Source of the DNA: a virus
Taxonomy: Duplodnaviria > Heunggongvirae > Uroviricota > Caudoviricetes
IMG/VR virus record: IMGVR_UViG_3300043466_002831
Location: 57,364 to 121,363 of that record
DNA: 64,000 nt
Reading direction: 5' to 3' (one strand)
The notes below the pieces were generated by a model that saw only the letters and a list, made by a program, of their open reading frames with translations, was not told where the DNA came from and searched no databases. Positions 3,381 through 52,345 of the stretch are shown one piece after another (within the stretch, counting starts at the first letter, position 1; each line of letters starts with the position of its first letter). The translations under genes were made by a program, and so were the position numbers.

Positions 3381-4529
3381 ATGGAGAAAATTGTCAACAC
3401 ATTAATCGACGAGGCAGTACAGAAAGTCGATACATATACTAATAATGGTTCAACTTGGCTCATTTTTACAGATGATAAAAGATGGGTTATTGAACTTACC
3501 AAAGATGGTACGTTATGGTATAACTACAATTTCTTTAATAGTTTATTTGCATATACCTCAATGGATGTAATTGAAAACCAACATTATATTACAAAGTGGG
3601 TTGAGAACAATGTCATCAATAAGAAAAAACCTGTCAAAAATGAGGTGAAAGACACTGAAGTGCGGAAGCGTCATTTGGTCCAACAGGTTGAAGACACCAT
3701 TCAAAATGGGGTGAAGCATACCTCTGGGGGTAGAAATTATGGTCCGTATAGAGTTGAAGACACCATACATAATGGGGTGAAGGAAACTATTGACCTTGAG
3801 ATGGATGACGAAGATGTTATTGAATACATGATTGAAACAGGTGTTAAAGAAACCATTGAATTGGTTAACTCTCAACTTGAGGAAGTTGAAGATACCATTC
3901 AAAATGGGGTGAAGAACACCCAACTTTGGTTAAATACCAGAGATACAGTAGTTGAAAGCGCTATTCAAAATGGGGTGAAAAATACCTACTCAGATAAAAT
4001 TCCTCATGAATATGATTGGACTGACCAATTTGATGTTAAAGAAGTTATTGAGACTGGTGTGAAACACACCGAAAAATCACTACAAATTGATGGTTCTTGT
4101 GTTATTGAAGATGTTATAAAGGAAGGAGTGAAACATACTGAGTATGGTGATTGGGAGGATGGTGATGAGAGATTGGATGATATCATTAAGAATGGGGTTA
4201 AACAAACCTGTGCTCAGATTCCCTCAATAGATGCTGTAGTAGAAAGAGTGGTTGAGGAAGGGATAAAAGAAACTAACATGGAAGAACATCATCGATTACG
4301 AGAAGTAGTTCAAACGGTTAAGAATGGTGTCAAAGAAACTCATGATGATGTTTATCCTCATACTGCCCGAATTGAAGGTGTGATTAAAAATGGAATTAAA
4401 GAAGTTCAACCATTACCAGCACAAGATGGCAACAGAGATTGGGGGATTTATTATTATAGAAAAGAAGATATAACCAAACCTCATACTCAATATGTGAATG
4501 ATGTAATTGAAAACGGAGAAAAATTTTAA
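3381..4529 (+). CDS. repeat protein with about 12 copies of an (I/V)xNGVKxT motif
   Basis: Peptide repeats such as EDTIQNGVKHT, IHNGVKET, IETGVKET, IQNGVKNT, IKEGVKHT, IKNGVKQT, VKNGVKET. The nucleotide repeat AATGGGGTGAA recurs. TACATTTG-N4-ATG promoter box directly upstream. Confidence 0.7.
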   Translation: MEKIVNTLIDEAVQKVDTYTNNGSTWLIFTDDKRWVIELTKDGTLWYNYNFFNSLFAYTSMDVIENQHYITKWVENNVINKKKPVKNEVKDTEVRKRHLVQQVEDTIQNGVKHTSGGRNYGPYRVEDTIHNGVKETIDLEMDDEDVIEYMIETGVKETIELVNSQLEEVEDTIQNGVKNTQLWLNTRDTVVESAIQNGVKNTYSDKIPHEYDWTDQFDVKEVIETGVKHTEKSLQIDGSCVIEDVIKEGVKHTEYGDWEDGDERLDDIIKNGVKQTCAQIPSIDAVVERVVEEGIKETNMEEHHRLREVVQTVKNGVKETHDDVYPHTARIEGVIKNGIKEVQPLPAQDGNRDWGIYYYRKEDITKPHTQYVNDVIENGEKF

Positions 4530-4531
4530 AT

Positions 4532-4927
4532 ATGAAAATAGGAATAACTGCAAGTGCATTTGATTTATTACATGCGGGACACGTTTTAATGTTAAAAGAG
4601 GCAAAATCGGTGTGTGACCACCTGATTGTCGCTTTACAAGTAAATCCAACATTAGATAGACCTGATAAGAATAAACCAATTCAATCTTTTTATGAGAGAT
4701 GGACTCAATTATCTGCGGTGAAATATGTGGATGAAATTATACCATATGAATCGGAAAAAGAACTTATGACAATCCTTCAAAATAATAATATTGATATTCG
4801 AATATTAGGTGATGAATATCGAAACAAAGTTTTCACGGGTTGCAACTTAGAAATGGAATACTACTTCAATAAAAGAACCCACAAATATAGTTCAACAGAA
4901 TTAAGAAAACGTCTCGGTGGTATTTAA
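4532..4927 (+). CDS. cytidylyltransferase (TagD/glycerol-3-phosphate cytidylyltransferase-like nucleotidyltransferase)
   Basis: HxGH motif FDLLHAGH near the N-terminus, and overall similarity in pattern to TagD-family enzymes (MKIGITASAFDLLHAGHVLMLKEAK...YVDEIIP). Confidence 0.65.
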   Translation: MKIGITASAFDLLHAGHVLMLKEAKSVCDHLIVALQVNPTLDRPDKNKPIQSFYERWTQLSAVKYVDEIIPYESEKELMTILQNNNIDIRILGDEYRNKVFTGCNLEMEYYFNKRTHKYSSTELRKRLGGI

Positions 4928-5108
4928 TTACATGAGAGATGCATTTATAATTAAAGGTAAAGAGATAAACTACATGGACACAAATTGGGTCATAACTGAA
5001 TTATATTACGTGCCAAACAATCCAAATTTATATGTTGAATTGTATGATGGTAAGTCAAGGATGAATGTGATATTGGACTCAATAAAGGATTTAATTATAA
5101 GAGAGTAA
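4917..5108 (+). CDS. hypothetical small protein
   Basis: 63-aa ORF between two enzyme genes. Confidence 0.35.
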   Translation: MVFNYMRDAFIIKGKEINYMDTNWVITELYYVPNNPNLYVELYDGKSRMNVILDSIKDLIIRE

Positions 5109-5109
5109 T

Positions 5110-5832
5110 ATGAAATTAAATGATTTATTAACTATTGTAATCCCTTGTAAAAACGAGAAGGATATTATATCTAAAACATTAGATTTATTAAATCATCAAA
5201 CAAATATTAAAGGGGTTAAAGTTATTGTTTGTGATTCATCTGATGATTTATATACCAAATTAGTTTTATTTAATAAATCAGAATATAACTCAAATGAGTA
5301 TGATTTTAAATTAGAAGTAATTGAAGGTGGTTTACCTGCTAAAGCAAGAAACAATGGATTTAACTTAGTTACTACACCATATGTTTTATTTATGGACGCT
5401 GATATATTCCTGTTGGACAGTAATCTTTTGGTTAATACTGTTTCAAAAATAAAAGACGAAGATTTAGATTTAGTCAGTGTTAGGTTTAGAACTGACAACG
5501 GAGACTACAATTACGTTTATAAAGTTTTTGATATTCTACAAAAACTATCAATGTTAATTTCACCATTCTGTTTGGGTGGATTCATGTTAACCAAATCATC
5601 GAAGTTTAAAGAGATTGGTGGATTTGATGAAGAAGTTAAAGTTGCTGAGGATTATGTTTATTCCAAACAAATAAAAAGTAATATGTTTAAAATACATAAT
5701 GCTTTTGTATATACACCGCCACGAAGATTCCACAATAAAGGTTTGTGGTATATGACCAAATTAATGATTGGGTCAGTCCTAAATAAAAACAATAAAGAAT
5801 ATTTTAAAGATAGTAAGAGTTATTGGTCATGA
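5110..5832 (+). CDS. family 2 glycosyltransferase
   Basis: LTIVIPCKNE...VIVCDSSDD...FMDADI pattern typical of GT-A/GT2 enzymes. Confidence 0.65.
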   Translation: MKLNDLLTIVIPCKNEKDIISKTLDLLNHQTNIKGVKVIVCDSSDDLYTKLVLFNKSEYNSNEYDFKLEVIEGGLPAKARNNGFNLVTTPYVLFMDADIFLLDSNLLVNTVSKIKDEDLDLVSVRFRTDNGDYNYVYKVFDILQKLSMLISPFCLGGFMLTKSSKFKEIGGFDEEVKVAEDYVYSKQIKSNMFKIHNAFVYTPPRRFHNKGLWYMTKLMIGSVLNKNNKEYFKDSKSYWS

Positions 5833-6545
5833 ACACATGGAGAACAATAATAATGAGTGATTTGCATCTTGGTGCACGACAATCACAAACAGATAAGATT
5901 ATCAAATTCTTGGAAGAAAATGAATCTGAGACATTAATTTTAAATGGTGACATCATTGACGGATGGGCACTTAAAAGTGGAGGAAAATGGAAAAAAGAAT
6001 GTTCCAAGATATTCCGAAGATTTATGAAAAGGAGTGAAATGGGTACAAAGGTGGTTTACCTCAGAGGTAATCACGATGACTTTTTAAAACCATTTGTTCC
6101 GTTCTTCATGAATAACATTCAAATTGTAAGAAAATATACACACATCGGAGCTGATGGTAGAAAGTACTACTGTTTCCATGGAGACGTTCTTGACTTTGTG
6201 ATTATGAAAGTAAGATGGTTAGCGGTACTTGGCGGTATATCTTATGACTTTGTAATCAAATTGAATACGATGTATAATTTCATCAGGAGGAAGTTTAATC
6301 TACCTTATCATTCTTTGGCGAATGATATTAAGCAAAGTGTTAAGGGTGCGATTAATTTTGTTTCTGACTTTGAAGAAAATGCTAAAGGATTAACAAAAAG
6401 TAAGGGCTGTGATGTTGCGGTTTGCGGTCACATACACCAACCAAAGTTAACTGAAGATTATATGAATTCAGGTGATTTCTGTGAGAACTCAACTTGTTTG
6501 GTTGAGGATTTTGAAGGTAAATGGTCGATAATTAATATGGGTTAA
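5829..6545 (+). CDS. LpxH-family calcineurin-like metallophosphoesterase
   Basis: SDLHLG...ILNGDIIDGW...LRGNHDDF...FHGDVLD...CGHIHQP matches metallophosphoesterase motifs in LpxH-like order. The track start 5823 is TTG; the ATG at 5829 overlaps the upstream stop (ATGA). Confidence 0.6.
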   Translation: MNTWRTIIMSDLHLGARQSQTDKIIKFLEENESETLILNGDIIDGWALKSGGKWKKECSKIFRRFMKRSEMGTKVVYLRGNHDDFLKPFVPFFMNNIQIVRKYTHIGADGRKYYCFHGDVLDFVIMKVRWLAVLGGISYDFVIKLNTMYNFIRRKFNLPYHSLANDIKQSVKGAINFVSDFEENAKGLTKSKGCDVAVCGHIHQPKLTEDYMNSGDFCENSTCLVEDFEGKWSIINMG

Positions 6546-6868
6546 TGATTGTACCCATATTCTGAGCTAAAAACAAATCCTTGACCATCACCACAATCAA
6601 AGAAAGAAGATACTTTAGGTTCTTTATTGTACATTTGTTTGTCAGGTGACAACATTTTAAACAAAGTTTTAACCTCGGAATCTATCTCCATTTGTTTTTT
6701 TGTTGATAAACATTCTGATGTGTAAAAATCAACAACATAACTATAACCTAAAAATAGTTCCATATTTTCATCGGCAAATAAATCTCGAACCTCAAATTCA
6801 GTTAATTCAGGGTATTGAGGTATGATTAATTTTTTAATTACAGTTTCTATTTGTGGAATAAGACTCAT
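6542..6868 (-). CDS. hypothetical protein
   Basis: 108-aa minus ORF. Confidence 0.5.
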   Translation of the reverse strand: MSLIPQIETVIKKLIIPQYPELTEFEVRDLFADENMELFLGYSYVVDFYTSECLSTKKQMEIDSEVKTLFKMLSPDKQMYNKEPKVSSFFDCGDGQGFVFSSEYGYNH

Positions 6869-6890
6869 ATCAGTTATAAATACTACTCAA

Positions 6891-7154
6891 TTATACAATT
6901 TCTTGGATTTTAAGGTTATACGCTTTACTGAACCACGCATTAATTACTGTAATCATAATTTTATCAATAAATTCTTTACCAAACTTTTTGTTAAGAGTTG
7001 ACTTAACCTCATCACTAACATACATGGTCGATGTTTTTATATCAAACAGGAAGAACTCATTCGCCCACGTCTGTTCTACTTTATCATAATAAAGATAAGG
7101 GAAACTAAACTTATCTTCAATGAACTTCACTATGTGTTTTTCAATTGTTGTCAT
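6891..7154 (-). CDS. hypothetical protein
   Basis: 87-aa minus ORF. Confidence 0.5.
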   Translation of the reverse strand: MTTIEKHIVKFIEDKFSFPYLYYDKVEQTWANEFFLFDIKTSTMYVSDEVKSTLNKKFGKEFIDKIMITVINAWFSKAYNLKIQEIV

Positions 7155-7209
7155 AACTTTAAAGATAATAAAGATTCATTATTAAACAAATATCTATATA
7201 TTTATTATC

Positions 7210-8421
7210 ATGAGATTAGATGAAAACATACTTAGAATAAAGGAAGTTATGGGATTGATTACCGAGGCGGAAGTAAATCCTCAAGGTGTTGAAATTAATC
7301 TTGGTAACTTATTTAAATCAGGTAAATATATTATAACACCTGAAATTGGTACTAAAATTAATTCTGCTATTAATCAAATCAAAGCATTTATTACTAAAAA
7401 TCCAGGTAAACCTGTTGTAGTTACAATAGAATCATCGGAATCAAAAGTACCTAATTATGACAGAGAAAAATTCCCATCAACTGGGAATAATGAGGTTGAT
7501 TTTACTAAAGAGAAAAAAATGGTGGTTGGAGCACTATCAAAAATTAGGGCAAATAATTTATCAACATATTTAAAACCTAAATTACCTAAAAGTGCTCAAA
7601 TAGTTATCAATGACAAGGGTGCTCAAGGACCTACTTGGGATGGCGTGAATGCGGATGCTGAAAAATATACTCAAAAACAATATGTTAAATTATTTGCAAA
7701 ACTTAACACTACCCAACCAACAACAAGTACGCCTAAAACAGACCCTAAATTTTGTACACAAGAAATAGAAAGTTCTGGTGGAAAGGGAAACCCAAGTAAT
7801 GGTTTTATCTCCGAGGTAAAAACTATTGAACTAGGTGAAGGTGAAAATACATTTAAATTCTTTATTGATTCTATAAGTGTACCTGATATTATGATTGTTG
7901 AATATAATGGGGTTACACAAACTACGGGATTTGTTGGTAGTGATACTGAATTATACCAAACTTTATTAGGGACTATAATTTATAACCGTTACGATAATTG
8001 GGGTAACCCAAGACCGTGGTGGTTCAAAAACCTTAAATTAGTTGGAGTACAACCATATCACGCTGACCAAGTTTTAAAAAAATATTCAGGTGATTGGACA
8101 CCTGATGATTTATCACACATCTATCCAAAGGCTCCTAAATTAAGTACTACTTTTTTTCAAACAATGACTAAAAATCCTGACGAATATGTTGGGAATTTTA
8201 AAGTATATAAATTAGGCTACGATTCAATTAGAACGATGGCGGCGGGAGTTGATGCTTGGAACGGTCCATCAAGTATAACTATTAATAAAGTTGCTGGTGT
8301 GAATACTGCCAAAGTTACTATCATTGGATTGATAGGTCAAACAAAATGGAAATTATATGTTAAGTGTGGTAACATTGCACCAATGTTAACAACTGCGGGT
8401 GGTTCAGGTGGGGATGCTTAA
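7210..8421 (+). CDS. hypothetical protein with variant NTM-like N-terminus
   Basis: MRLDENILRIKEVMGLITE resembles the MNLREDIERIQEVMGIE variant of the family motif. Confidence 0.55.
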   Translation: MRLDENILRIKEVMGLITEAEVNPQGVEINLGNLFKSGKYIITPEIGTKINSAINQIKAFITKNPGKPVVVTIESSESKVPNYDREKFPSTGNNEVDFTKEKKMVVGALSKIRANNLSTYLKPKLPKSAQIVINDKGAQGPTWDGVNADAEKYTQKQYVKLFAKLNTTQPTTSTPKTDPKFCTQEIESSGGKGNPSNGFISEVKTIELGEGENTFKFFIDSISVPDIMIVEYNGVTQTTGFVGSDTELYQTLLGTIIYNRYDNWGNPRPWWFKNLKLVGVQPYHADQVLKKYSGDWTPDDLSHIYPKAPKLSTTFFQTMTKNPDEYVGNFKVYKLGYDSIRTMAAGVDAWNGPSSITINKVAGVNTAKVTIIGLIGQTKWKLYVKCGNIAPMLTTAGGSGGDA

Positions 8422-8532
8422 CTTATTCGGTGAAAACTGTTGAATACTAAAAATATTATTAGTATTATTCATTGACCACACCAAAATGGTGTTTTTACGT
8501 CTATCGTGTAATTTACAAAACTACTTATCATT

Positions 8533-10752
8533 ATGAGATTATTAACTATTTTATTTTTGACCCTATTAACGTCAATAGGGTATACACAGTATTGCCCTGC
8601 ATTAGGTCCTGACCAATTACTTCCATGTGGTGTTGGTACAACAACATTAACCGCTGACCTATCCCAATGTGGTGGAGGTGGGGCAAACCCAAATCAAACA
8701 ACAAACTACGGTGTAACTAATATACCTTACGTTGCTCAAACAAACACAGGAACAAATTTGTTTATGACGGATGACTCCCAACAAGGGCCGTTCAGTATTG
8801 GATTTAACTTCTGTTTCTTTGGTACGACATACACTCAATTCTATGTTGGCTCTAACGGGTGGATTTCATTCGGAGCGGGACAACCAACAACCTTTACGTC
8901 TCAACCAATCCCAACAGGTAATGGTTTGGTACCTAAAAATTGTATCATGGGTCCTTGGCAAGATTGGCATCCTGGTCTTGGAGGTCAAATAAAATACCAA
9001 GTTCAAGGAGTTGCACCATGTAGAAAACTTGTAGTTAGTTGGATTAACATGCCGATGTTTTCATGTACAGGTAATCAAGGTACATTCCATATTGTAATAT
9101 ATGAATCGTCTAACTATATTGAGAATTATATTCAAAATAAACCTGCGTGTTTGCAGTGGCAAGGTGGGACTGCGACACAAGGAATTCATAATTCATTAGG
9201 TACTATTGGTATTGCGGTTGCTGGTAGAAACTCAACTGCGTGGACAGCAACAAACGATGCGTACAGATGGACACCAAGTGGTCCTGTAGTTACACCAACA
9301 TTAACTTGGTATCAGGTAGGTAATCCAACTCCAATAGGAACGGGACCAACAATTACGGTGACACCACCTGCGGCAGGAGCACAATATACTTGTAAATTTG
9401 TTTATCCTATTTGTAACGCGGGATGGTCAAATTGTAATTTAAGTACAGGTAACTTAGGACCCGATACGGTCTTTGTTGTGCCAGGTCCACCAAACTTACC
9501 ACCACCAATTGTTACGACATTCAACCCAAATTGTGAGGGTAGTTGTGATGGTGCAATCAATGTGGTTTCAAATGGAGGAACAGGTGTAAGTACCATTTCT
9601 TGGAATGGACAACCACCATTATTTACATTAACCAACTTATGTTCGGGAATTTATTCATTTACTATTGTGGATGCGGCAGGTTGTAATGTTTCAGGTACGG
9701 CAACTTTAGTTAATCCACCACCTGTAATCGCAAATCCAATCATTGCGTCAGATACGGTATGTTATCAGTCAAACAATATGGTATATACTACAACTGATTT
9801 AGGTGTGGGATATACATATCAATGGTCATCTGTTGGTAATATTGTGTCAGGTCAAGGGAATGATACGGTTGTTGTTGATTGGTCAGTATTACCTGCGGGG
9901 TTTATACCAAATGCTGTTGACATGATTGCCGTCAGTCCAAATGGATGTTTAAGTTTCCCCGTATCGTTTGACATCACAATATTCAATGTACTTCCTGTGA
10001 TAACACCTGTTGGACCATTCTGTTCTAACGATGAGTTCACTACGTTAAATGCAACACCAATAGGCGGAGTATTCAGTGGAACAGGGGTAATGGGTAATGA
10101 CTTTTATCCGTCTAATGCGGACACATTAAACAATATTATCACCTACACCTATACTCAAAGTGGATGTATCTTTGATACCACTACGGACATCATAGTATAT
10201 GAGCAACCAATCTTATCTCAAATCACTCCATACAACGAGTTCTTTGAAGTTTGTGACGGTGATTCAATACCAAGTATATATAGTGTAACTTCAACCGTTC
10301 TTGGTGGATATAATGAATGGACATTATTGGGTAACACAACTGAGTCGGATAACTTTAACATTGCTTGGGATGCATTTGGAACATTTGTATTATCAGTTGT
10401 AAGTTATGTTAATGGATGTGCATCACCACAACAACAAACAACAATCACAATTGCTCAATGTCCTCAAGAATTATTATACATTCCAAATTCATTTACACCT
10501 GATGGTAATGAGTTTAATAATACATGGAGACCCATAATTACTTCAGGGTTTGATAACACAGAATACCGAATGACGTTATATAATAGATGGGGTGAAATTA
10601 TATGGGAATCTCAAGACATCAACGAAGGATGGGATGGAACTTATAATAATAGTATAGTTCCTGTTGGTTCATATGTTTGGACGGTACAACTCAAGGCGTT
10701 AAAGACCGATTATAGACAGATATTGTCAGGTAGTTTGAATGTTTTAAAATAA
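8533..10752 (+). CDS. large secreted surface protein with T9SS type-B (gliding-motility-associated) C-terminal sorting domain
   Basis: Signal peptide MRLLTILFLTLLTSIGYTQ. C-terminus YIPNSFTPDGNEFNNTWRPI...YRMTLYNRWGEIIWESQDINEGWDG...GSYVWTV fits the T9SS type-B C-terminal domain pattern. Terminator follows. Confidence 0.7.
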   Translation: MRLLTILFLTLLTSIGYTQYCPALGPDQLLPCGVGTTTLTADLSQCGGGGANPNQTTNYGVTNIPYVAQTNTGTNLFMTDDSQQGPFSIGFNFCFFGTTYTQFYVGSNGWISFGAGQPTTFTSQPIPTGNGLVPKNCIMGPWQDWHPGLGGQIKYQVQGVAPCRKLVVSWINMPMFSCTGNQGTFHIVIYESSNYIENYIQNKPACLQWQGGTATQGIHNSLGTIGIAVAGRNSTAWTATNDAYRWTPSGPVVTPTLTWYQVGNPTPIGTGPTITVTPPAAGAQYTCKFVYPICNAGWSNCNLSTGNLGPDTVFVVPGPPNLPPPIVTTFNPNCEGSCDGAINVVSNGGTGVSTISWNGQPPLFTLTNLCSGIYSFTIVDAAGCNVSGTATLVNPPPVIANPIIASDTVCYQSNNMVYTTTDLGVGYTYQWSSVGNIVSGQGNDTVVVDWSVLPAGFIPNAVDMIAVSPNGCLSFPVSFDITIFNVLPVITPVGPFCSNDEFTTLNATPIGGVFSGTGVMGNDFYPSNADTLNNIITYTYTQSGCIFDTTTDIIVYEQPILSQITPYNEFFEVCDGDSIPSIYSVTSTVLGGYNEWTLLGNTTESDNFNIAWDAFGTFVLSVVSYVNGCASPQQQTTITIAQCPQELLYIPNSFTPDGNEFNNTWRPIITSGFDNTEYRMTLYNRWGEIIWESQDINEGWDGTYNNSIVPVGSYVWTVQLKALKTDYRQILSGSLNVLK

Positions 10753-10758
10753 TCTTAA

Positions 10759-10787
10759 CCCTCACAGAAATGTGGGGGTTTTTATTT
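10759..10787 (+). terminator. rho-independent terminator
   Basis: CCCTCACA-GAAA-TGTGGGGG followed by TTTTT. Confidence 0.75.
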
Positions 10788-10793
10788 AGTAAA

Positions 10794-10805
10794 GTATTTA
10801 TTAAT
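10794..10805 (+). promoter_or_regulatory. conserved upstream motif GTATTTATTAAT abutting ATG
   Basis: Identical 17-mer AAGTATTTATTAATATG also occurs at 18119-18135 and 34354-34370, each directly after a terminator. Confidence 0.5.
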
Positions 10806-11120
10806 ATGAACTTACGAGAAGACATAGAAAGAATTCAAGAGGTAATGGGTATTGAGGTATCAAATCTATTCAAACGAAAAATGCATATTGTTGACCGACT
10901 AATATATACTTTGATTGAAGATTCAATGTATCCATGTGATTATGATAATGAGGAAGAGTTTTATGAGGGAGTTATTTATGAACTCAGTTGGTTAGTTAAA
11001 AACAAGGACTTTGGTTTAGATGATGTTGAATGGTTAGATATCTATGATTACATAACAAATTTCAAAGAAGAAGAACTCAAAGGTTATTATAAAGAACGTT
11101 GTGGTGACAAAGATGTTTAA
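10806..11120 (+). CDS. NTM family protein (MNLxE variant)
   Basis: Real start is the ATG at 10806 (MNLREDIERIQEVMG). The track start 10770 lies inside the upstream terminator hairpin. Conserved GTATTTATTAAT motif immediately upstream. Confidence 0.65.
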   Translation: MNLREDIERIQEVMGIEVSNLFKRKMHIVDRLIYTLIEDSMYPCDYDNEEEFYEGVIYELSWLVKNKDFGLDDVEWLDIYDYITNFKEEELKGYYKERCGDKDV

Positions 11121-11176
11121 GAACGAAAATATCGACCTTAAAAAATGTTTGTTGTTTATCAAAATTATACTTAACT

Positions 11177-11431
11177 TTGTACACTATGGGAAAGATAATA
11201 TTAGAATTTGATTCATTTGAAGAAAAAGTTGAGGCAAACGATGCACTCAACGGTACTAAGTGGAGACTCGCAATGTGGGACTTAGACCAAGTATTACGTT
11301 CTGTGGTAAGGAACGATGTCAGTATGTTTGGTAATTACGAAGCATCTGAAGAGGAATACAAAATTGCCGAAAAAATCAGGGAAGAGATGAGAAAGATTTT
11401 GAATCAGGCTAATCTTGATTTAGAAGATTAA
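11177..11431 (+). CDS. hypothetical protein
   Basis: 84-aa ORF. Confidence 0.5.
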   Translation: MYTMGKIILEFDSFEEKVEANDALNGTKWRLAMWDLDQVLRSVVRNDVSMFGNYEASEEEYKIAEKIREEMRKILNQANLDLED

Positions 11432-11444
11432 AGTATTTAATACT

Positions 11445-13205
11445 ATGAAGATTATTGTCACCAAGGAACAGCATAATATTATTAAGGAGGCGTTAGGTGT
11501 TCCTGATTCAATTTTAGATGCTGCGGAAGAACTATATGATGTATTTGCGGATAACTTAAAGAGCATTACAGATAAAGAATCATCTTATGAATTTAGAGAT
11601 GATATTGATGTGGTATTGGGTGACAAGAAGAAGATTACAATTGATGGATATACTTTAGAGGTTGAAATTGAAGAAGTTGATGATTTCCACGAAAGAGTTA
11701 CTCCTGATAGAAACGTAACAATATCTTCAATGGGTATGTCACAACAATTTAGATTTAACCGTGACACCATGATGAAAGAAATACAACCATCAACAAGTGC
11801 TGGATTCAATATTGTTTATTATGCTTCACCTGAATGGGAACCTCAAGATTTGTATGATGAATTCATTAGAGAGAAAAGTAAAAGTATTGGTTCTTTAGCC
11901 CATGAATTAAAACACAAATACGATAAACAAGCCAAACGAATTGATTTAATTGGTAAAGACGCTGAATATAGTGCGGTAGATAAACTACCATCGTTTCACG
12001 TCCCTGAGGTTGATGACCAATTTGTTCGTTATTTGTATTTTACAGATGGAACTGAGGATTTAGTTAGAACAACAGAGGTTGCTTCCAACATGAGAAGTGA
12101 AGGTATTAGTAAATCTCAATTTAGAGAATTCTTACAAAACAATAAAACCTTTAAAACTTTGGTCGATATTAAAAACTTTACCTTTGAAAAATTAATCAAA
12201 GGGATTTACAATAATCTTGACACAGTTGATAAAATCTTTGATGCTATTGATGTGGATACTGATGGAATGTCTGATAAAGATAAGGTGGAAAAGTTCTTGA
12301 AAATAATTTATGTCAATCTTTCCAATATGAAATTGCGTACATTTGAAGATTATGTTGGTAGTAGTGAAAATATGTTCGCACAATTTCTTAGAGCGATGGG
12401 ACAACTAGGTATTGCCGATGATGAAGAAGAGATTAAACTTAACAAGATTAAAACAAAATTTCAAAATCACGTTTTAAAATATAGAGATAATCCAATACAA
12501 TTCTTTAAGAGTGAAATAGACCGATTCCATAGAGTTTCAGACCAAGCAATGAAAAGAATAAGTAAACTATATGCGATGGCAAAAGACGATACAGAAATGA
12601 CAGAATCGATTATTGATTGGGAACTTCACAGACAACTGATGGAGAAGAAACACGGGAAACGACCAATAGAAACTAATTTTAAATTTATTAGTGAAGATAG
12701 AGAATCCAAAATTGAAAACATCAGACAATTAATAAAAGACCCTAACCAATTTGAAACAATGGTTAAAGTAATGGGTATTGAAAATATAATTAAAATTGCT
12801 TATGATGGCGACATAATTAAGTTCAGTGAAGACACAACTACTCCACTTGCTTATATGTCTACAGACAGAATGAATTTATATATACATAAGGCGTTAGTTG
12901 ATGAACTTGGACTAAAAGACATAGGGTGGGCTGGTCGTAATGAAAAAGAATTAGGTAAATTCGCATATGGTTCCAAGAATGGTCTGAGATACGCATTCAA
13001 CGCTACATTAGCTCCAACAAGACTTCCAAGACTTCATAACCAAAACTATTATAGAGTTGTTGGAACAAGTGGTGATTCAGGATTTGGTTATAGTTTTATT
13101 AATAAAAAAAACATATTAGGTGTAAGATATAGGCAACAAATCTTCAAACAGATAATTGACAAATACGATTTATCAAAATACATGAATGTGAAAACTTTTT
13201 ATTAA
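11445..13205 (+). CDS. NTM family protein, large (586 aa)
   Basis: N-terminus MKIIVTKEQHNIIKEALG. Terminator follows. Confidence 0.65.
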   Translation: MKIIVTKEQHNIIKEALGVPDSILDAAEELYDVFADNLKSITDKESSYEFRDDIDVVLGDKKKITIDGYTLEVEIEEVDDFHERVTPDRNVTISSMGMSQQFRFNRDTMMKEIQPSTSAGFNIVYYASPEWEPQDLYDEFIREKSKSIGSLAHELKHKYDKQAKRIDLIGKDAEYSAVDKLPSFHVPEVDDQFVRYLYFTDGTEDLVRTTEVASNMRSEGISKSQFREFLQNNKTFKTLVDIKNFTFEKLIKGIYNNLDTVDKIFDAIDVDTDGMSDKDKVEKFLKIIYVNLSNMKLRTFEDYVGSSENMFAQFLRAMGQLGIADDEEEIKLNKIKTKFQNHVLKYRDNPIQFFKSEIDRFHRVSDQAMKRISKLYAMAKDDTEMTESIIDWELHRQLMEKKHGKRPIETNFKFISEDRESKIENIRQLIKDPNQFETMVKVMGIENIIKIAYDGDIIKFSEDTTTPLAYMSTDRMNLYIHKALVDELGLKDIGWAGRNEKELGKFAYGSKNGLRYAFNATLAPTRLPRLHNQNYYRVVGTSGDSGFGYSFINKKNILGVRYRQQIFKQIIDKYDLSKYMNVKTFY

Positions 13206-16731: not shown

Positions 16732-18087
16732 ATGGATAAACGTCATTACAATAGATGGTCTGATGAAGACTTAAAAAAAGAAGCGTTAAAGTATTCAACA
16801 TTATCGGATTTCAAAAATAACGCTAGTTCACAGTATAGGCAATCTTTAAAAAGGGGTAAAGAATTTTTTGATAACATAACATCTCACATAACAAGAAAAT
16901 GTGCGAATCTTTCTAAAAATGAATTAAAACAAATTGCTTTGAGATATGAATATAAAGGAGAATTTCAAAAATATGATAAAGCGGCATATCTTTCGGCGTT
17001 AAGAAGAGGACGTGAATTTTTTAACGACATTACTTCTCACATGAAAAATAAGTTAAATTATTGGACTGATGAGATTTTAAGAAATGAAGTACTTAAATAC
17101 CAAACGAAACTTGAATTCAAAAAAAACAATTTTAAAGCGTATCAGGCTGCAATGTCTAAAGGTAAAAATTTTTGGTATGATGTAACATCTCATATGGATA
17201 ATAGTCATTTTACAAGATGGACCAAAGAATTATTAACACAAGAAGCTTTGAAACATAATACTTTAACTGATTTTAAGCAAAAAAGTAAAGGTGCTCATAG
17301 TGCTGCAAAAAAAATAGGTATCGATTTCTTTAATTTAATAACTTCACATATGCCACAACCTAAAAGGTGGACCTACGAAGAATTAAAAAATGAAGCCTTG
17401 AAATATACCACAAAGTCAGACTTCCGAAAAAACAATAGGAATGCATATCAAGTTTCAAAAGAAAGAAAGATATTAAATGATATTTGTACACACATGGAAA
17501 AAATAGGTAGCAAATACTCAAGAATTATTTATACGTATGAATTTTCCGATAATAGTGTTTACGTAGGATTGACCTACAAACCATCTCAAAGACATAGTGA
17601 CCACATGAGCAAAAAAAATTCTGCGGTTTTCCTTTATATGGAAAAAACAGGGTTAGTACCTATAAAAAAAATAATGACCGATTTTTTAAATAAAGATGAT
17701 GCATCTGAGATGGAAACTGAAATACTGAACAAATACCGTAATGAAGGATGGAAAATTTTAAATCGTACTAAAACTGGAGGGTTGGGTGGATTTACAAGAC
17801 GTTGGACACCCGAAAACATAGAAAAAGAAGCACTTAAGTATGATACACTAACTGAATTTTATAAAAATTCACGCGCAGTAACTGTCGCCGCCAAAAAAAT
17901 AGGTGAAGACTTTTATAAAAAAATTATTTCTCATATGAAACGAACTACAGTTTGGACCGAAGAACTTTTAAGAGAAGAATCCCAAAATTATAAAACTAGA
18001 ACTCATTTTGCAAGGGGAAGTACGAGCGCATATTATACTTCTAAAAAGAGAGGATTATTAGATAAGTTTTTTCCGAGAAAGAAATGA
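16732..18087 (+). CDS. GIY-YIG homing-endonuclease-like protein embedded in seven ~48-aa tandem repeat modules
   Basis: GIY-YIG core IYTYEFSDNSVYVGLTYKPSQRHSDH...N. Seven repeats of the pattern W(T/S)xEEL(K/R)xEALKYxT(K/L)xxFxKNxxxAYxxxxK(R/K)GxxFFxxITSHM, five before and two after the nuclease core. Confidence 0.7.
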   Translation: MDKRHYNRWSDEDLKKEALKYSTLSDFKNNASSQYRQSLKRGKEFFDNITSHITRKCANLSKNELKQIALRYEYKGEFQKYDKAAYLSALRRGREFFNDITSHMKNKLNYWTDEILRNEVLKYQTKLEFKKNNFKAYQAAMSKGKNFWYDVTSHMDNSHFTRWTKELLTQEALKHNTLTDFKQKSKGAHSAAKKIGIDFFNLITSHMPQPKRWTYEELKNEALKYTTKSDFRKNNRNAYQVSKERKILNDICTHMEKIGSKYSRIIYTYEFSDNSVYVGLTYKPSQRHSDHMSKKNSAVFLYMEKTGLVPIKKIMTDFLNKDDASEMETEILNKYRNEGWKILNRTKTGGLGGFTRRWTPENIEKEALKYDTLTEFYKNSRAVTVAAKKIGEDFYKKIISHMKRTTVWTEELLREESQNYKTRTHFARGSTSAYYTSKKRGLLDKFFPRKK

Positions 18088-19856: not shown

Positions 19857-19882
19857 CCTCACTGTAATGGTGAGGTTTTTTT
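19857..19882 (+). terminator. rho-independent terminator
   Basis: CCTCAC-TGTAATG-GTGAGG perfect stem followed by TTTTTTT. Confidence 0.8.
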
Positions 19883-19883
19883 G

Positions 19884-19891
19884 TATATTTG
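19884..19891 (+). promoter_or_regulatory. -7 promoter box TATATTTG, 4 nt upstream of HNH ATG
   Basis: TAnnTTTG-N4-ATG. Confidence 0.55.
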
Positions 19892-19895
19892 TATT

Positions 19896-20804
19896 ATGTT
19901 AGTTCGCGAGTGTCCATCATGTAATAGTAATATCACATATTCTAATAAGGATAATTTTAATAGTGCCAATAAAAAAGGTAGTTTGTGTAAAAAGTGTGCC
20001 GAGGCAGAGAAACACGGTAGAAAAACTATTACGGACATAAATACATTTTTTAGACTCTATAGCGAAGAACGTAGAAGTGTGGAGGATATTGCAAAACACT
20101 TTGAAGTGTTACCTAGCACTGTTAAAAATTATGCCAACCATAATAAAATAAACAGACGAGATTACGATATTATTATGGAAAAAGAAGGTAAAAAAAGGTG
20201 TCATGGATGTAAATCTTTTTATGTCTTTGATGACTTTCATAAAAACAATAACACTAGAGATGGATTGGTAACCAAGTGTAAAAAATGTATGTGTGAGAAA
20301 TCAAATGATTATAAAGATAAAAATCTTGAACGAGTGTTAAAATCTACAAAGGAATATTCAAAACGAATGAAAGAAGAAAATCCTGAGACCTTTAAAAAGT
20401 GGAGAAAAACCGCTAAAAAAAATTACTTAAACAGTGAGATTGGTAAGTGGGATAGTAAATGTCGTTCTATATTAAAAAGAGCTTTATCTAAAATGGGTTT
20501 AACTAAAAATGATACCACTAACAAATTATTAGGGTATTCACCTAAACAACTTCTTGATTATTTAAAAACTTTTGATTTATATTATGAGGGTGGATATGAA
20601 GTTGACCACAAAGTACCTATTAGTTATTTTAAATTAGGAACTCACCCAAGTATCATTAATTCATTATGTAATTTACAATTAACCACCATTAAATATAATC
20701 AAAATAAAAGTAATAAGTTTGCCGACCCAATTACTATTGATTATTATGATAATATTAAACTACATATTAAAGAAGAATGTCTTAATAAACTTATTGTGAA
20801 ATAA
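19896..20804 (+). CDS. HNH homing endonuclease with two N-terminal Cys4 zinc-finger-like modules
   Basis: CPSCNS...CKKC and CHGCKS...CKKCMC; C-terminal HNH signature YEVDHKVPISYF...N. ATG at 19896 preceded by TATATTTG-N4. Flanked by a 75-bp direct repeat. Confidence 0.7.
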   Translation: MLVRECPSCNSNITYSNKDNFNSANKKGSLCKKCAEAEKHGRKTITDINTFFRLYSEERRSVEDIAKHFEVLPSTVKNYANHNKINRRDYDIIMEKEGKKRCHGCKSFYVFDDFHKNNNTRDGLVTKCKKCMCEKSNDYKDKNLERVLKSTKEYSKRMKEENPETFKKWRKTAKKNYLNSEIGKWDSKCRSILKRALSKMGLTKNDTTNKLLGYSPKQLLDYLKTFDLYYEGGYEVDHKVPISYFKLGTHPSIINSLCNLQLTTIKYNQNKSNKFADPITIDYYDNIKLHIKEECLNKLIVK

Positions 20805-49898: not shown

Positions 49899-49916
49899 TT
49901 GGGGTATTTAATATAT

Positions 49917-52024: not shown

Positions 52025-52345
52025 TTATTCTTCTTCAGAATCCCAACCGTCCTCTTCGTACCAATATTCGGCACAAGGATATTCTCTTCCTTGTTCATCA
52101 ATATGACACCAATGAGTTTTACTTTCATCCAACCATTTCCAATCTTTTCCCTCATCACCTTCAGGTAAATCGGGGTGTTCTAATGGTGGATGGTATGAAT
52201 TGACATCAACGTATCTGTAATTGCAATCGCATCCACGAGGAACACAATCATCACAAAAGTTTGGATTATCCCCGCCTGAAAACCCAGGACCATAACTCCA
52301 AATTGCAACTTTTCCGCAATCACACAAATCTTTAGACATACTCAA
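52025..52345 (-). CDS. Cys-rich small protein
   Basis: CDCGK...CDDC...CDCNY; hairpin terminator downstream on the minus strand. Confidence 0.5.
   Translation of the reverse strand: MSMSKDLCDCGKVAIWSYGPGFSGGDNPNFCDDCVPRGCDCNYRYVDVNSYHPPLEHPDLPEGDEGKDWKWLDESKTHWCHIDEQGREYPCAEYWYEEDGWDSEEE

What the first reader, a model, noticed from the sequence alone, without database searches (positions are those of the whole stretch)
4532..6545. Cytidylyltransferase, GT2 glycosyltransferase and LpxH-like phosphoesterase gene cluster
Three consecutive enzymes, with a 63-aa ORF between the first two, consist of a TagD-like CDP-alcohol-forming cytidylyltransferase, a family-2 glycosyltransferase and an LpxH-family pyrophosphatase. 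Together they look like a small glycoconjugate module. Candidate roles are modification of the host envelope (LPS, lipid A or capsule remodelling for superinfection exclusion), glycosylation of phage proteins (the Thr/Pro-rich protein at 46811 is an obvious candidate substrate), or nucleotide or DNA hypermodification.
Basis: inference. Interest (0 to 1): 0.55.

Follow-up and report, generated by a model that had tools for sequence, protein, structure and literature searches.

The report
Phage phospholipid-to-glycolipid renovation gene pair
A large phage of Bacteroidota carries a tightly conserved two-gene cassette, a glycosyltransferase plus a PlcP-type phospholipase C that databases mislabel as the lipid A enzyme LpxH, and it most likely swaps host phospholipids for sugar lipids to free phosphorus; the neighbouring cytidylyltransferase is a separate, widely spread phage gene.

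Summary
The four ORFs exist as described and all are under purifying selection. The conserved unit is not the trio.

- **GT2→MPE pair:** overlapping ATGA junction; found in 41 of 41 related viral loci with upstream sequence, including a pair only 43-44% identical.
- **CT:** adjacent only in the window's closest kin. Elsewhere it sits in T4-like replication modules.
- **MPE is not LpxH:** it keeps GNHD where LpxH has GNRD, and scores 30-40 bits against LpxH models with cut-offs of 134-190.
- **MPE is PlcP/"LpxH2"-type:** an HMM built only from bacterial plcP→agt operon proteins scores it 259 bits, against 33 for E. coli LpxH. Of 80 bacterial homologues, 65 have an adjacent glycosyltransferase, and some relatives are GT4-MPE fusions.

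Best reading (inferred, about 0.5): a phage lipid-renovation cassette. PlcP releases diacylglycerol and phospho-headgroups, and GT2 makes glycolipid. The GT2 partner has no match in deposited phages or beside bacterial homologues. I found no paper describing phage PlcP; virome surveys file viral "lpxH" under LPS biosynthesis. Verdict: a new variant of a known system.

The parts
5110..5832 (+). GT2 (GT-A fold) glycosyltransferase, 240 aa. It is the upstream member of the conserved cassette and the inferred diacylglycerol (or other lipid) glycosyltransferase.
   Evidence: - Family hits: PF00535 E 1.1e-15; PF13506 (GT21) 28.3 bits and PF13641 also above cut-off.
- Motifs: DxSxD, DAD and ED are invariant in a 31-sequence alignment.
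- Linkage: lies immediately upstream of the MPE in 41 of 41 phage-clade loci.
- Selection: dN/dS 0.10-0.14.
- Fold: best matches are GtrB, PcManGT and ArnC, but the model is weak (pLDDT 64).
- Distribution: no match in 50,697 deposited phages. None within 6 kb of 80 bacterial MPE homologues.
5829..6545 (+). PlcP/LpxH2-type metallophosphoesterase, 238 aa from the ATG at 5829 (the ORF as listed begins with TTG at 5823). It is the inferred Mn-dependent phospholipase C.
   Evidence: - Family hit: PF00149 E 1.4e-15.
- Motifs: all five MPE blocks are invariant, with GNHD rather than GNRD.
- LpxH models: 39.8 and 29.9 bits against cut-offs of 134 and 190.
- Discriminating HMM built from 34 plcP→GT4 operon proteins: 258.6 bits, E 3e-75, against 33.4 bits for E. 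coli LpxH.
- Structure: AF2 model pLDDT 91 with a helical insertion at about residues 120-193. The best PDB fold match is LpxH, TM 0.54-0.57.
- Insertion aromatic content: 15%, as in bacterial PlcP-like proteins, against 7.8% in LpxH.
- Selection and junction: dN/dS 0.03-0.04; ATGA overlap with the GT2 stop.
4532..4927 (+). TagD-like cytidylyltransferase, 131 aa. It is a co-directional neighbour and NOT part of the conserved cassette. Substrate unknown.
   Evidence: - Family hits: PF01467 E 2.5e-14; TIGR01518 69.5 bits, below the 165 cut-off; phrog_7878 E 1.3e-34.
- End-to-end alignment to B. subtilis TagD 1COZ, E 4.8e-17, with HxGH and an RTxxxSST motif.
- Adjacent to GT2 only in the window's close kin. 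Elsewhere it lies in T4-like replication modules.
- 56-59% identical genes occur in Vibrio and Synechococcus phages, and 43% in Caulobacter phage Cr30.
- dN/dS 0.02-0.05.
4932..5108 (+). Small ORF, 58 aa from the ATG at 4932 or 63 aa from the GTG at 4917. It is an optional insert between CT and GT2. Function unknown.
   Evidence: - No family hit.
- Present only in the window and L011-L013 (87% aa identity). Absent in L014-L018, where CT is followed by GT2 after about 20 bp.
- dN/dS 0.10 against L011, so probably a real gene.

Best explanation
The functional unit is the overlapping gene pair GT2 (5110-5832) → MPE (5829-6545). It is carried by a clade of large, uncultivated phages (contigs up to about 290 kb) whose host is probably Bacteroidota.

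The MPE is a PlcP-type ("LpxH2") metallophosphoesterase. PlcP is the phospholipase C that bacteria use during phosphate starvation to cleave glycerophospholipids into diacylglycerol plus a phosphorylated headgroup. The partner glycosyltransferase then converts diacylglycerol into a phosphorus-free glycolipid.

Expressed during infection, the pair would strip phosphorus from host membrane phospholipids for phage nucleotide and DNA synthesis while keeping the membrane intact until lysis. That would make it an auxiliary metabolic cassette comparable to phage pstS/phoA.

**Shown here**
- The pair is a conserved, co-evolving unit.
- The MPE belongs to the PlcP/LpxH2 clade, not to LpxH.
- Bacterial members of that clade are nearly always paired with, or fused to, a glycosyltransferase.

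**Inferred**
- The enzyme's substrate.
- That GT2, a different GT family from the bacterial partners, takes diacylglycerol as acceptor.
- That the benefit to the phage is phosphorus scavenging.

The TagD-like cytidylyltransferase and the small ORF are neighbours, perhaps co-transcribed in this lineage. They are not part of the conserved unit.
For: **1. Linkage of the pair**
- GT2 lies directly upstream of the MPE in all 41 phage-clade loci with upstream sequence. The junction is usually an overlap of a few bp or a short gap.
- This includes L052/L053, where both proteins have diverged to 43-44% identity yet remain adjacent.

**2. Clade assignment of the MPE**
- A profile of 48 homologues has invariant GNHD, and its best PDB hit is LpxH, which has GNRD at that position.
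- The literature states that His→Arg occurs only in LpxH. It also reports that the LpxH2 paralogue has another substrate and failed to complement E. coli lpxH (PMC5016852; PMC3087551).
- An HMM trained on 34 bacterial proteins from plcP→GT4 operons scores the window MPE 258.6 bits against 33.4 bits for E. coli LpxH.

**3. Guilt by association in bacteria**
- 65 of 80 bacterial homologues (36-47% identity) have a same-strand glycosyltransferase within 500 bp: 34 with GT4 downstream, 8 with GT4 upstream, 23 with a GT28-like GT-B downstream.
- Other recurrent neighbours are a DAG-kinase-family kinase and a patatin phospholipase.
- Relatives at 38-43% identity are GT4-MPE fusion proteins.
- This matches the published PlcP-Agt pathway (PMC4796936; PMC8528852; PMC9239053). 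Published cases also include plcP next to other GT types.

**4. Structure**
- The confident model (pLDDT 91) has an LpxH-like helical insertion.
- The insertion is aromatic-rich, as reported for LpxH2.

**5. Phosphorus context in other phages**
- The pelagiphage Mosig homologue sits beside a phosphate ABC transporter gene.
- In one jumbo-phage sub-lineage the pair abuts PPK2.

**6. Constraint**
- MPE is 78-95% identical across phages whose GT2 is 53-86% identical and whose flanks are mostly unrecognisable.
- dN/dS is 0.03-0.04.
Against: - No biochemical data exist for any phage member.
- I could not obtain the sequences of the experimentally verified PlcPs (PA3219, SMc00171, MED193_17359, HTCC7211). 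Orthology therefore rests on operon-type proxies.
- The partner is a GT2 (GT-A), not the GT4 or GT28-like partner of the bacterial homologues. No GT2 relative lies next to any of the 80 bacterial homologues.
- By sequence and fold, GT2 is a generic GT-A. Its nearest structures are polyprenyl-phosphate glycosyltransferases (GtrB, PcManGT, ArnC), and the model is weak (pLDDT 64). The diacylglycerol acceptor is therefore pure inference.
- A Bacteroidota paralogue closer to LpxH also keeps GNHD. The His/Arg test is thus not fully discriminating in that phylum.
- No pstS or phoH lies beside the pair in the window. The source environment and its phosphate status are unknown.
Confidence: 0.5

Rival explanations
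1. The biochemistry is the same (a PlcP-type phospholipase C plus a lipid glycosyltransferase) but the purpose differs. The phage remodels the host membrane for superinfection exclusion, to change the receptor environment, to control lysis timing, or to support a large virion factory. Phosphorus scavenging is not the point.
For: - The clade assignment and pairing evidence is the same as for the best explanation.
- No phosphate-uptake gene lies beside the pair in the window or in most relatives.
- Membrane lipid composition is reported to affect phage attachment (title of PMC9938194, listed).
Against: - In bacteria the pathway is documented as a phosphate-starvation response.
- Two independent phage contexts place it beside phosphorus genes: the phosphate transporter in Mosig and PPK2 in L005-L010.
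Confidence: 0.18
2. This is surface-glycan modification. GT2 is a GtrB/ArnC/DPMS-like polyprenyl-phosphate glycosyltransferase that loads a sugar on undecaprenyl phosphate. The MPE acts on a lipid pyrophosphate or a nucleotide sugar. Together they alter LPS, O-antigen or capsule, as in seroconversion or superinfection exclusion. This is the closest version of the first reader's envelope hypothesis.
For: - The top Foldseek hits for the GT2 model are GtrB, PcManGT and ArnC.
- There is a weak PHROG hit to GtrB-like O-antigen conversion, E 0.0025.
- O-antigen-modifying GT2 genes are common in phages (established knowledge).
Against: - The GT2 is only 240 aa and lacks the C-terminal transmembrane helices of GtrB; the model shows a single short helix at 209-224.
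- No GtrA- or GtrC-like membrane partner is annotated among conserved neighbours.
- The GT2 model is low confidence.
- The universally linked partner belongs to a clade whose characterised members cleave phospholipids.
Confidence: 0.12
3. This is a true lipid A function. The MPE is an LpxH-type UDP-2,3-diacylglucosamine pyrophosphatase that boosts or perturbs host lipid A synthesis. This is how virome surveys implicitly treat viral lpxH, filing it under LPS biosynthesis.
For: - Sources name it LpxH.
- LpxH is the closest solved family by profile and by fold.
- Virome papers list viral lpxH (K03269) under LPS biosynthesis.
Against: - It scores 39.8 and 29.9 bits against curated cut-offs of 134 and 190, where E. 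coli LpxH scores 364 and 389.
- It has invariant GNHD instead of the LpxH-specific GNRD.
- One Bacteroidota genome (L135) encodes a separate paralogue closer to LpxH (99 bits) about 5 kb upstream of its PlcP-like gene.
- Homologues abound in Alphaproteobacteria. That class includes Caulobacter, where lpxI does this step.
- The P. aeruginosa LpxH2 did not complement E. coli lpxH.
Confidence: 0.07
4. All three enzymes form one pathway. For example, CT activates the phospho-headgroup released by the MPE (glycerol phosphate or phosphoethanolamine) to a CDP-alcohol, or it supplies an activated donor used with GT2 to decorate a glycoconjugate, phage protein or DNA.
For: - CT-(small ORF)-GT2-MPE are co-directional with gaps or overlaps of 11 bp or less in the window.
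- CT abuts GT2 in 8 related contigs and lies within 4-10 kb of the pair in 4 more.
- TagD/ECT-type enzymes act on exactly the phospho-alcohols that a phospholipase C would release (established biochemistry; alignment).
Against: - 29 of 41 pair-bearing loci have no CT within the sequence held, which reaches at most 10 kb each side.
- 68 of 80 CT loci have no pair within 10 kb. There, CT sits among DNA polymerase, clamp loader, RegA, gp46/47-like and dCMP deaminase genes.
- Cultured phages with close CT genes are absent from the MPE hit list, and no deposited phage has the GT2.
- No similarity to known DNA glycosyltransferases was seen, and nothing links the cluster to the Thr/Pro-rich protein.
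Confidence: 0.1

Closest known systems
PlcP-Agt lipid renovation pathway of bacteria (S. meliloti SMc00171; SAR11 HTCC7211; Phaeobacter MED193; P. aeruginosa PA3219/PA3218; Methylosinus OB3b)
   Same: - A metallophosphoesterase of the LpxH-like superfamily that keeps GNHD.
- Encoded next to, and in some relatives fused with, a glycosyltransferase.
- The window MPE scores 259 bits on an HMM built from plcP→GT4 operon proteins.
- The helical insertion is aromatic-rich.
   Different: - Encoded by a phage.
- The partner is a 240-aa GT2 (GT-A) placed upstream with an ATGA overlap, not a GT4 Agt placed downstream.
- Identity to bacterial members is only 36-47%.
- There is no PhoB/Pho-box context.
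- Activity is untested.
LpxH (UDP-2,3-diacylglucosamine diphosphatase of lipid A synthesis; PDB 5K8K, 5B49, 6PH9, 8QJZ)
   Same: - Same overall architecture: an MPE core plus a helical insertion.
- The closest solved structures by profile (E 3.9e-16) and by fold (TM 0.54-0.57).
- The source of the database name.
   Different: - GNHD rather than GNRD.
- Far below the curated family cut-offs.
- Only about 24% identity to E. coli LpxH.
- Different insertion composition.
- Different gene context.
Pgt (GT21) and other GT-A diacylglycerol glycosyltransferases found next to plcP in some bacteria (Devers et al. 2011, as cited in PMC4796936)
   Same: A GT-A-type glycosyltransferase adjacent to plcP. 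The phage GT2 passes the PF13506 (GT21) gathering score at 28.3 bits against 21.7.
   Different: The PF00535 hit is much stronger. No Pgt sequence was available for comparison. The phage GT2 is much shorter than I recall Pgt to be and has no predicted transmembrane segment.
TagD (glycerol-3-phosphate cytidylyltransferase) and the phage 'TagD/HldE-domain-II-like' genes of T4-like phages (phrog_7878)
   Same: - The CT aligns end to end with TagD 1COZ and has the HxGH motif.
- It is 56-59% identical to genes in Vibrio and Synechococcus phages, and 43% to Caulobacter phage Cr30.
   Different: - Below the TIGR01518 equivalog cut-off (69.5 against 165 bits).
- Substrate unknown.
- Not a conserved partner of the GT2-MPE cassette.
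Phage phosphate-stress auxiliary genes (pstS, phoA, phoH in cyanophages and pelagiphages)
   Same: The proposed benefit is the same: relieving phosphorus limitation of phage replication. The Mosig homologue sits beside a phosphate ABC transporter gene.
   Different: The mechanism would mobilise phosphorus from inside the cell, out of membrane lipids, rather than take it up or scavenge it from outside.

Membership tests
LpxH (UDP-2,3-diacylglucosamine diphosphatase) | Block-3 motif GNRD: Arg replaces the His found in other metallophosphoesterases. This is stated to be unique to and universal in LpxH (PMC5016852, PMC3087551). | tested here: not met
   His84 is invariant in 48 homologues. The alignment to LpxH 5K8K shows GNHD against GNRD. 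Caveat: a Bacteroidota paralogue closer to LpxH also keeps GNHD.
LpxH (UDP-2,3-diacylglucosamine diphosphatase) | Score above the curated equivalog cut-offs of TIGR01854 and NF003743 | tested here: not met
   29.9 bits against a cut-off of 190.35, and 39.8 bits against 134. The E. coli LpxH control scores 388.9 and 364.3.
LpxH (UDP-2,3-diacylglucosamine diphosphatase) | MPE catalytic core with a helical insertion (lipid-binding) domain | tested here: met
   The AF2 model (pLDDT 91) has helices at about residues 120-193 inserted in the MPE core. LpxH is the top Foldseek hit. LpxH2/PlcP shares this feature, so it does not discriminate between the two.
LpxH (UDP-2,3-diacylglucosamine diphosphatase) | Hydrolyses UDP-2,3-diacylglucosamine and complements lpxH | not testable with these tools
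   Needs an enzyme assay or genetics. The literature reports that P. aeruginosa LpxH2 did not complement.
PlcP / LpxH2 (phosphate-starvation phospholipase C) | Five-block MPE signature with GNH(D/E) retained, clustering with the LpxH-like proteins | tested here: met
   D13, H15, D43, N83, H84, H119, H203 and H205 are invariant. LpxH is the nearest solved family.
PlcP / LpxH2 (phosphate-starvation phospholipase C) | Sequence affiliation with proteins encoded in plcP-agt operons rather than with LpxH | tested here: met
   An HMM of 34 plcP→GT4 operon proteins scores the window MPE 258.6 bits (E 3e-75), Bacteroidota homologues 239-289 bits and E. coli LpxH 33.4 bits.
PlcP / LpxH2 (phosphate-starvation phospholipase C) | High similarity to an experimentally verified PlcP (e.g. 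BLAST E < 1e-40 to MED193_17359, the criterion used in PMC4796936) | not tested
   The verified sequences (MED193_17359, SMc00171, PA3219, HTCC7211) were not obtainable with the tools. Proxies were used: Rhizobium, Sphingomonadales and Bradyrhizobium homologues, at E 1e-57 to 1e-70 in a small database.
PlcP / LpxH2 (phosphate-starvation phospholipase C) | Neighbouring gene for non-phosphorus lipid synthesis (agt, pgt, btaAB) | tested here: inconclusive
   A glycosyltransferase is always adjacent. It is a GT2 with no demonstrated lipid acceptor and is unrelated to the GT4 or GT28-like partners of the bacterial homologues.
PlcP / LpxH2 (phosphate-starvation phospholipase C) | Mn-dependent hydrolysis of PE, PG or PC to diacylglycerol | not testable with these tools
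   Needs an enzyme assay or lipidomics.
Agt (GT4 glycolipid glycosyltransferase) | GT-B fold, GT4 family (Glyco_transf_4 + Glycos_transf_1) | tested here: not met
   The window GT is GT-A/GT2 (PF00535). tblastn with the GT4 domains of the fusion proteins finds nothing in the viral loci.
GtrB-type polyprenyl-phosphate glycosyltransferase | GT2 catalytic domain followed by C-terminal transmembrane helices, working with GtrA and GtrC | tested here: not met
   The GT-A domain is present and GtrB is the top fold hit. However, the protein ends at residue 240 with only one short helix at 209-224, against 305-316 residues modelled in the matched GtrB chains. No conserved membrane-protein partner was found among neighbours.
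TagD (glycerol-3-phosphate cytidylyltransferase) | HxGH and RTxGISTT nucleotidyltransferase motifs over a protein of about 130 aa | tested here: met
   Aligns at residues 2-131 to 1COZ residues 2-129, E 4.8e-17. LHAGH is present, and RTHKYSST matches RTEGISTT.
TagD (glycerol-3-phosphate cytidylyltransferase) | Score above the TIGR01518 equivalog cut-off (the proxy for substrate specificity) | tested here: not met
   69.5 bits against a cut-off of 165.4. HldE domain II scores nearly as well at 58.7 bits.

The most novel reading that the evidence does not exclude
A large, abundant clade of uncultivated jumbo phages of Bacteroidota encodes a self-contained membrane lipid-renovation cassette.

- One component is a PlcP-type phospholipase C.
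- The other is a previously unrecognised minimal GT2-type diacylglycerol glycosyltransferase.
- Together they would convert host phospholipids to glycolipids during infection and release phosphorus for replicating a genome of up to about 290 kb.
- PlcP-type genes have entered phages at least three times: this clade, pelagimyophage Mosig beside a phosphate transporter gene, and cyanophage S-SRM01.

If so, the viral "lpxH" genes counted in viromes as LPS-biosynthesis AMGs are really phosphorus-stress lipid-remodelling genes.
Probability: 0.4. Interest if true: 0.7.

Novelty: new variant of a known kind. Interest (0 to 1): 0.58.

Why it matters
If correct, membrane lipids join phosphate uptake (pstS, phoA) as a phosphorus source that phages tap through their own genes. 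Phage infection would then be tied directly to lipid remodelling, a major phosphorus-stress response of aquatic bacteria.

It would also correct a systematic mis-annotation. Viral "lpxH" (K03269) is currently counted as an LPS-biosynthesis AMG.

It would add a candidate new family of small GT-A glycolipid synthases.

The cassette is very abundant: more than 7,000 database proteins, one 90% cluster with 1,750 members. It is also unusually conserved, which suggests a strong fitness effect.

The hypothesis is directly testable with two small soluble or peripheral proteins expressed in E. coli.

Tried and rejected
- **DNA-level search of the region against deposited phages.** Only a 173-bp CT match was found. 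The window is not a known phage.
- **phmmer of the MPE against PDB.** No hit. A family profile was needed.
- **Genome scan with the 48-sequence alignment.** It failed for lack of conserved stretches. It worked with 10 sequences.
- **Wei et al. 2018 (PlcP biochemistry, PMC6052262).** Not held. PlcP's mutational features could therefore not be used.
- **Verified PlcP sequences.** Not obtainable.
- **Promoter/terminator scan.** Fewer promoter-like sites than in shuffles, so uninformative.
- **Tandem repeats in the upstream repeat protein.** None at DNA level.
- **AFDB50 fold library.** Unavailable.
- **GT2 structure prediction.** The permitted shallow alignment gave only pLDDT 64, so its fold hits are treated as weak.
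- **Search for a phage-type GT2 beside bacterial homologues.** Both tblastn and an HMM found nothing.
- **Rhizobium locus.** No GT neighbour.
- **Mre11/SbcD-like DNA-repair nuclease.** Rejected, because LpxH-type hits rank well above Mre11/SbcD and the protein carries the LpxH-type helical insertion.
- **DNA hypermodification.** Considered because a Mom-like gene lies about 1.6 kb upstream of the pair in L005-L010 and a ThyA-like gene lies in the window. That neighbourhood is not conserved across the clade, and nothing ties GT2 to DNA.
- **Literature searches for phage-encoded PlcP.** Nothing found.


Full report
**Observation**

The window contains four co-directional ORFs at the stated coordinates:
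- CT, 4532-4927
- a small ORF, 4917/4932-5108
- GT2, 5110-5832
- MPE, 5823/5829-6545

Pfam hits are strong: PF01467 E 2.5e-14, PF00535 E 1.1e-15 and PF00149 E 1.4e-15. The junctions are tight: a 2-nt gap before CT, a 1-nt gap before GT2, and an ATGA stop/start overlap between GT2 and the MPE if the MPE starts at the ATG at 5829. That start matches the 236-238-aa length of its relatives.

Codon-level comparison with close relatives gives these dN/dS values:

| Gene | dN/dS |
|---|---|
| CT | 0.02-0.05 |
| small ORF | 0.10 |
| GT2 | 0.10-0.14 |
| MPE | 0.03-0.04 |

All four are therefore real, constrained genes.

**What the window is**

- It has no close match among deposited phages and no tRNAs.
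- It encodes phage-type functions: a sigma factor, an endonuclease VII-like protein, a GIY-YIG protein, a T4 Rnl1-like RNA ligase and a ThyA homologue.
- It also encodes a 739-aa protein with a CHU_C type IX secretion sorting domain.
- Proteins 90-95% identical lie on IMG/VR viral contigs of up to about 104 kb. More distant members of the clade lie on contigs of 220-299 kb.

I take it to be part of a large uncultivated phage. The Bacteroidota host is an inference from the T9SS domain, which by established knowledge is restricted to that phylum.

**Which genes are really linked**

I fetched 33 viral loci through the MPE and 80 through the CT, plus contigs found by exact-protein look-up. I then located all window proteins in them.

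- *GT2 and MPE.* GT2 lies immediately upstream of the MPE in all 41 phage-clade loci that include upstream sequence.
  - This holds in L052/L053, where both proteins are only 43-44% identical to the window's.
  - In two loci a 0.3-0.65-kb insert separates them.
- *CT.* It is adjacent to GT2 only in 8 contigs closest to the window.
  - It lies 4-10 kb away in 4 others.
  - In the other 68 CT loci there is no pair within 10 kb.
  - There its neighbours are DNA polymerase, clamp loader, RegA, a gp55-like sigma factor, gp46/47-like proteins, a UvsW-like helicase and dCMP deaminase. That is a T4-like replication module.
  - Cultured phages carry related genes annotated TagD: 56-59% identity in Vibrio phiKT1024/Va1 and Synechococcus S-H68/S-B43, and 43% in Caulobacter Cr30. 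None of them appears among the MPE hits, and no deposited phage has the GT2.
- *Small ORF.* It is present only in the window and three contigs.

The conserved unit is therefore GT2→MPE, not the trio.

A striking detail is the difference in conservation. The MPE is 78-95% identical across phages in which GT2 is 53-86% identical and most flanking genes are unrecognisable.

**What the MPE is**

Database sources call it LpxH. Several tests say otherwise.
- It scores 39.8 and 29.9 bits against the LpxH equivalog models, whose cut-offs are 134 and 190. E. coli LpxH scores 364 and 389.
- A single-sequence search of PDB finds nothing.
- A 48-sequence family profile does find LpxH as the nearest solved family (E 3.9e-16, full length). 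That alignment shows the family's invariant GNHD opposite LpxH's GNRD.
- Two papers state that this His→Arg change occurs only in LpxH. They define a paralogous "LpxH2" lineage that keeps His, has a different aromatic-rich helical insertion, is inferred to have another substrate, and failed to complement E. coli lpxH (PMC5016852; PMC3087551).
- The AF2 model (pLDDT 91) has the MPE core plus a helical insertion at about residues 120-193. LpxH is the top fold match at only TM 0.54-0.57.
- The insertion is 15% aromatic in phage and bacterial relatives, against 7.8% in E. coli and H. influenzae LpxH.

**Link to PlcP**

The phosphate-starvation phospholipase C, PlcP, is a metallophosphoesterase for which LpxH serves as the phylogenetic outgroup (PMC9239053). 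It is usually encoded next to a glycosyltransferase (Agt, a GT4, or other GTs) that turns the released diacylglycerol into MGDG or GADG (PMC4796936; PMC8528852).

Three results tie the phage MPE to this family.
1. *Fusions.* In a search of 1.84 billion representatives, relatives at 38-43% identity include proteins of 560-660 aa. Their N-termini are GT4 glycosyltransferases. This is a Rosetta-stone fusion.
2. *Neighbours.* A genome scan returned 80 bacterial homologues at 36-47% identity from Bacteroidota, Verrucomicrobiota, Alphaproteobacteria and Campylobacterota. Of these, 65 have a same-strand glycosyltransferase within 500 bp:
   - 34 with GT4 downstream, the published plcP→agt layout. These are mostly Alphaproteobacteria, such as Bradyrhizobium and the sphingomonads.
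   - 8 with GT4 upstream, all Verrucomicrobiota.
   - 23 with a GT28-like GT-B downstream, almost all Bacteroidota.
   - Other recurrent neighbours are a DAG-kinase-family kinase and a patatin phospholipase.
3. *Discriminating HMM.* An HMM trained only on the 34 plcP→GT4 operon proteins gives these scores:

| Protein | Bits |
|---|---|
| Window MPE | 258.6 (E 3e-75) |
| Bacteroidota homologues | 239-289 |
| Mosig homologue | 327 |
| E. coli LpxH | 33.4 |

The nearest bacterial relatives of the jumbo-phage clade are Bacteroidota proteins at 43-47% identity.

One caveat applies. A second Bacteroidota paralogue, in the same Lunatimonas locus, also keeps GNHD. It is much closer to LpxH (99 bits) than the PlcP-like copy (52 bits) or the phage protein. 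Bacteroidota therefore appear to have both types, and the phage protein matches the PlcP-like one.

**The glycosyltransferase**

- It is a minimal GT-A enzyme with invariant DxSxD, DAD and ED motifs.
- Its sequence relatives in PDB are generic GT2s: K4CP, TarS/TarP and PcManGT.
- The structure model is weak (pLDDT 64). Its best fold matches are membrane-interfacial lipid-phosphate glycosyltransferases: GtrB, PcManGT and ArnC.
- The protein lacks their transmembrane helices.
- It has no match in deposited phages.
- No relative lies beside any of the 80 bacterial homologues.

Its acceptor therefore cannot be assigned by homology. A diacylglycerol acceptor is inferred from its universal, co-evolving linkage to a PlcP-type enzyme. 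It is also consistent with the published observation that plcP can be paired with several unrelated GT families, including a GT-A-type Pgt.

**Mechanism proposed**

This is inference, with overall confidence of about 0.5.
1. During infection the MPE cleaves host glycerophospholipids to diacylglycerol plus phospho-headgroups.
2. GT2 glycosylates the diacylglycerol to a phosphorus-free glycolipid, which keeps the membrane functional.
3. The liberated phosphorus feeds replication of a very large genome.

Supporting context comes from other phages. The Mosig pelagiphage homologue is nearest to proteobacterial plcP-agt-type proteins (50% identity) and lies beside a phosphate ABC transporter gene. 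In one jumbo-phage sub-lineage the pair abuts PPK2. PlcP-type genes thus seem to have entered phages independently several times.

Rivals considered:
- the same chemistry for a non-nutritional purpose
- a GtrB-like surface-glycan function
- a genuine LpxH function
- a three-enzyme pathway that includes CT

Each is listed with its evidence in the rival explanations.

**Comparison with what is known, and novelty**

The PlcP-Agt pathway is well established in bacteria. I found no paper describing a phage-encoded PlcP. Virome surveys list viral lpxH (K03269) under lipopolysaccharide biosynthesis.

This is therefore best classed as a new variant of a known kind: a known pathway, in a phage, with a non-orthologous and otherwise undescribed GT2 partner. 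The family is very abundant, with more than 7,000 proteins and one 90% cluster of 1,750 members.

- The enzyme families are right.
- A functional module exists, but it has two genes.
- The phosphoesterase is PlcP-like rather than LpxH.
- None of the proposed roles (LPS or lipid A, protein glycosylation, DNA hypermodification) gained support.

Noticed in passing
window 3381-4529 (+): A 382-aa protein directly upstream of CT is made of about a dozen irregularly spaced copies of a ~12-aa motif (consensus roughly vEDtIqNGVKhT). It is conserved at 47-57% identity in close relatives. The only hits are a weak DUF7020 match and tape-measure-like PHROG matches. There is no DNA-level tandem repeat.
   Followed up: partly
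window 8533-10752 (+): A phage-encoded 739-aa Cys/Gly/Thr-rich protein carries a C-terminal CHU_C type IX secretion sorting domain (E 4.5e-13). Relatives L005-L010 carry a 1059-aa GEVED/PKD/CHU_C protein near the cassette. This suggests a Bacteroidota host and a phage protein exported by the host T9SS.
   Followed up: partly
L001 (Pelagibacter phage Mosig, MT647606.1) 6001-6738: The gene annotated 'UDP-2,3-diacylglucosamine hydrolase' is PlcP-type: 327 bits on the plcP-agt HMM and 50% identity to proteobacterial operon members. It lies next to a phosphate ABC transporter gene, with no adjacent GT. The listed host is HTCC1062. PMC4796936 reports PlcP only in the two tropical SAR11 isolates, HTCC7211 and HTCC7217, so the host may lack plcP.
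   Followed up: partly
L005-L010, about 5600-12700 (relatives on 125-299 kb contigs): In this sub-lineage the GT2-MPE pair is flanked by a Mom-like protein (PF25680), a 213-aa protein with a 'Gp23' Pfam hit, PPK2 on the opposite strand, an aminotransferase plus DUF5522, and further upstream a TROVE/Ro60-like protein and a YAcAr domain protein.
   Followed up: no
window 52332-53006 (-): A second, unrelated metallophosphoesterase (224 aa; Metallophos_2 E 1.3e-13) with no helical insertion noted.
   Followed up: no
window 61576-62202 (-) and 62783-63838 (-): A HAD-family phosphatase (hits to LNS2/lipin-type, acid phosphatase B and PNKP phosphatase domains) lies near a T4 Rnl1-like RNA ligase. This may be an RNA-repair pair. 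The lipin-type hit is curious given the lipid theme but was not pursued.
   Followed up: no
window 60291-61388 (-): A thymidylate synthase homologue of 365 aa covers the whole 266-position Pfam profile, so it carries about 100 extra residues (E 2.3e-93). I did not test whether it is ThyA or a dUMP/dCMP hydroxymethylase.
   Followed up: no
L003 (MT836169.1, 'Bacteriophage sp.' from human faeces) 3781-5705: The MPE here is 78% identical to a Phocaeicola homologue. It is followed, with overlapping stop and start, by the Bacteroidales-type 372-aa GT-B glycosyltransferase. This is either a very recent capture of the host plcP-GT operon or a bacterial fragment filed as phage.
   Followed up: partly
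L135 (Lunatimonas MAG) 230-997 and 6001-6723: One Bacteroidota genome carries two LpxH-like paralogues 5 kb apart. One is closer to LpxH (99 bits on NF003743) yet has GNHD. The other is PlcP-like and has a GT-B neighbour. The textbook rule 'Arg only in LpxH' may not cover the Bacteroidota lipid A enzyme.
   Followed up: partly
window 16732-18087, 19881-20804, 29097-30020, 49899-51113 (+): Other annotated phage functions are a GIY-YIG domain protein (phrog_20046), an endonuclease VII-like protein, a sigma factor, and a 404-aa protein with an Hjc-like resolvase domain. Most other ORFs of 120 aa or more have no family hit.
   Followed up: no
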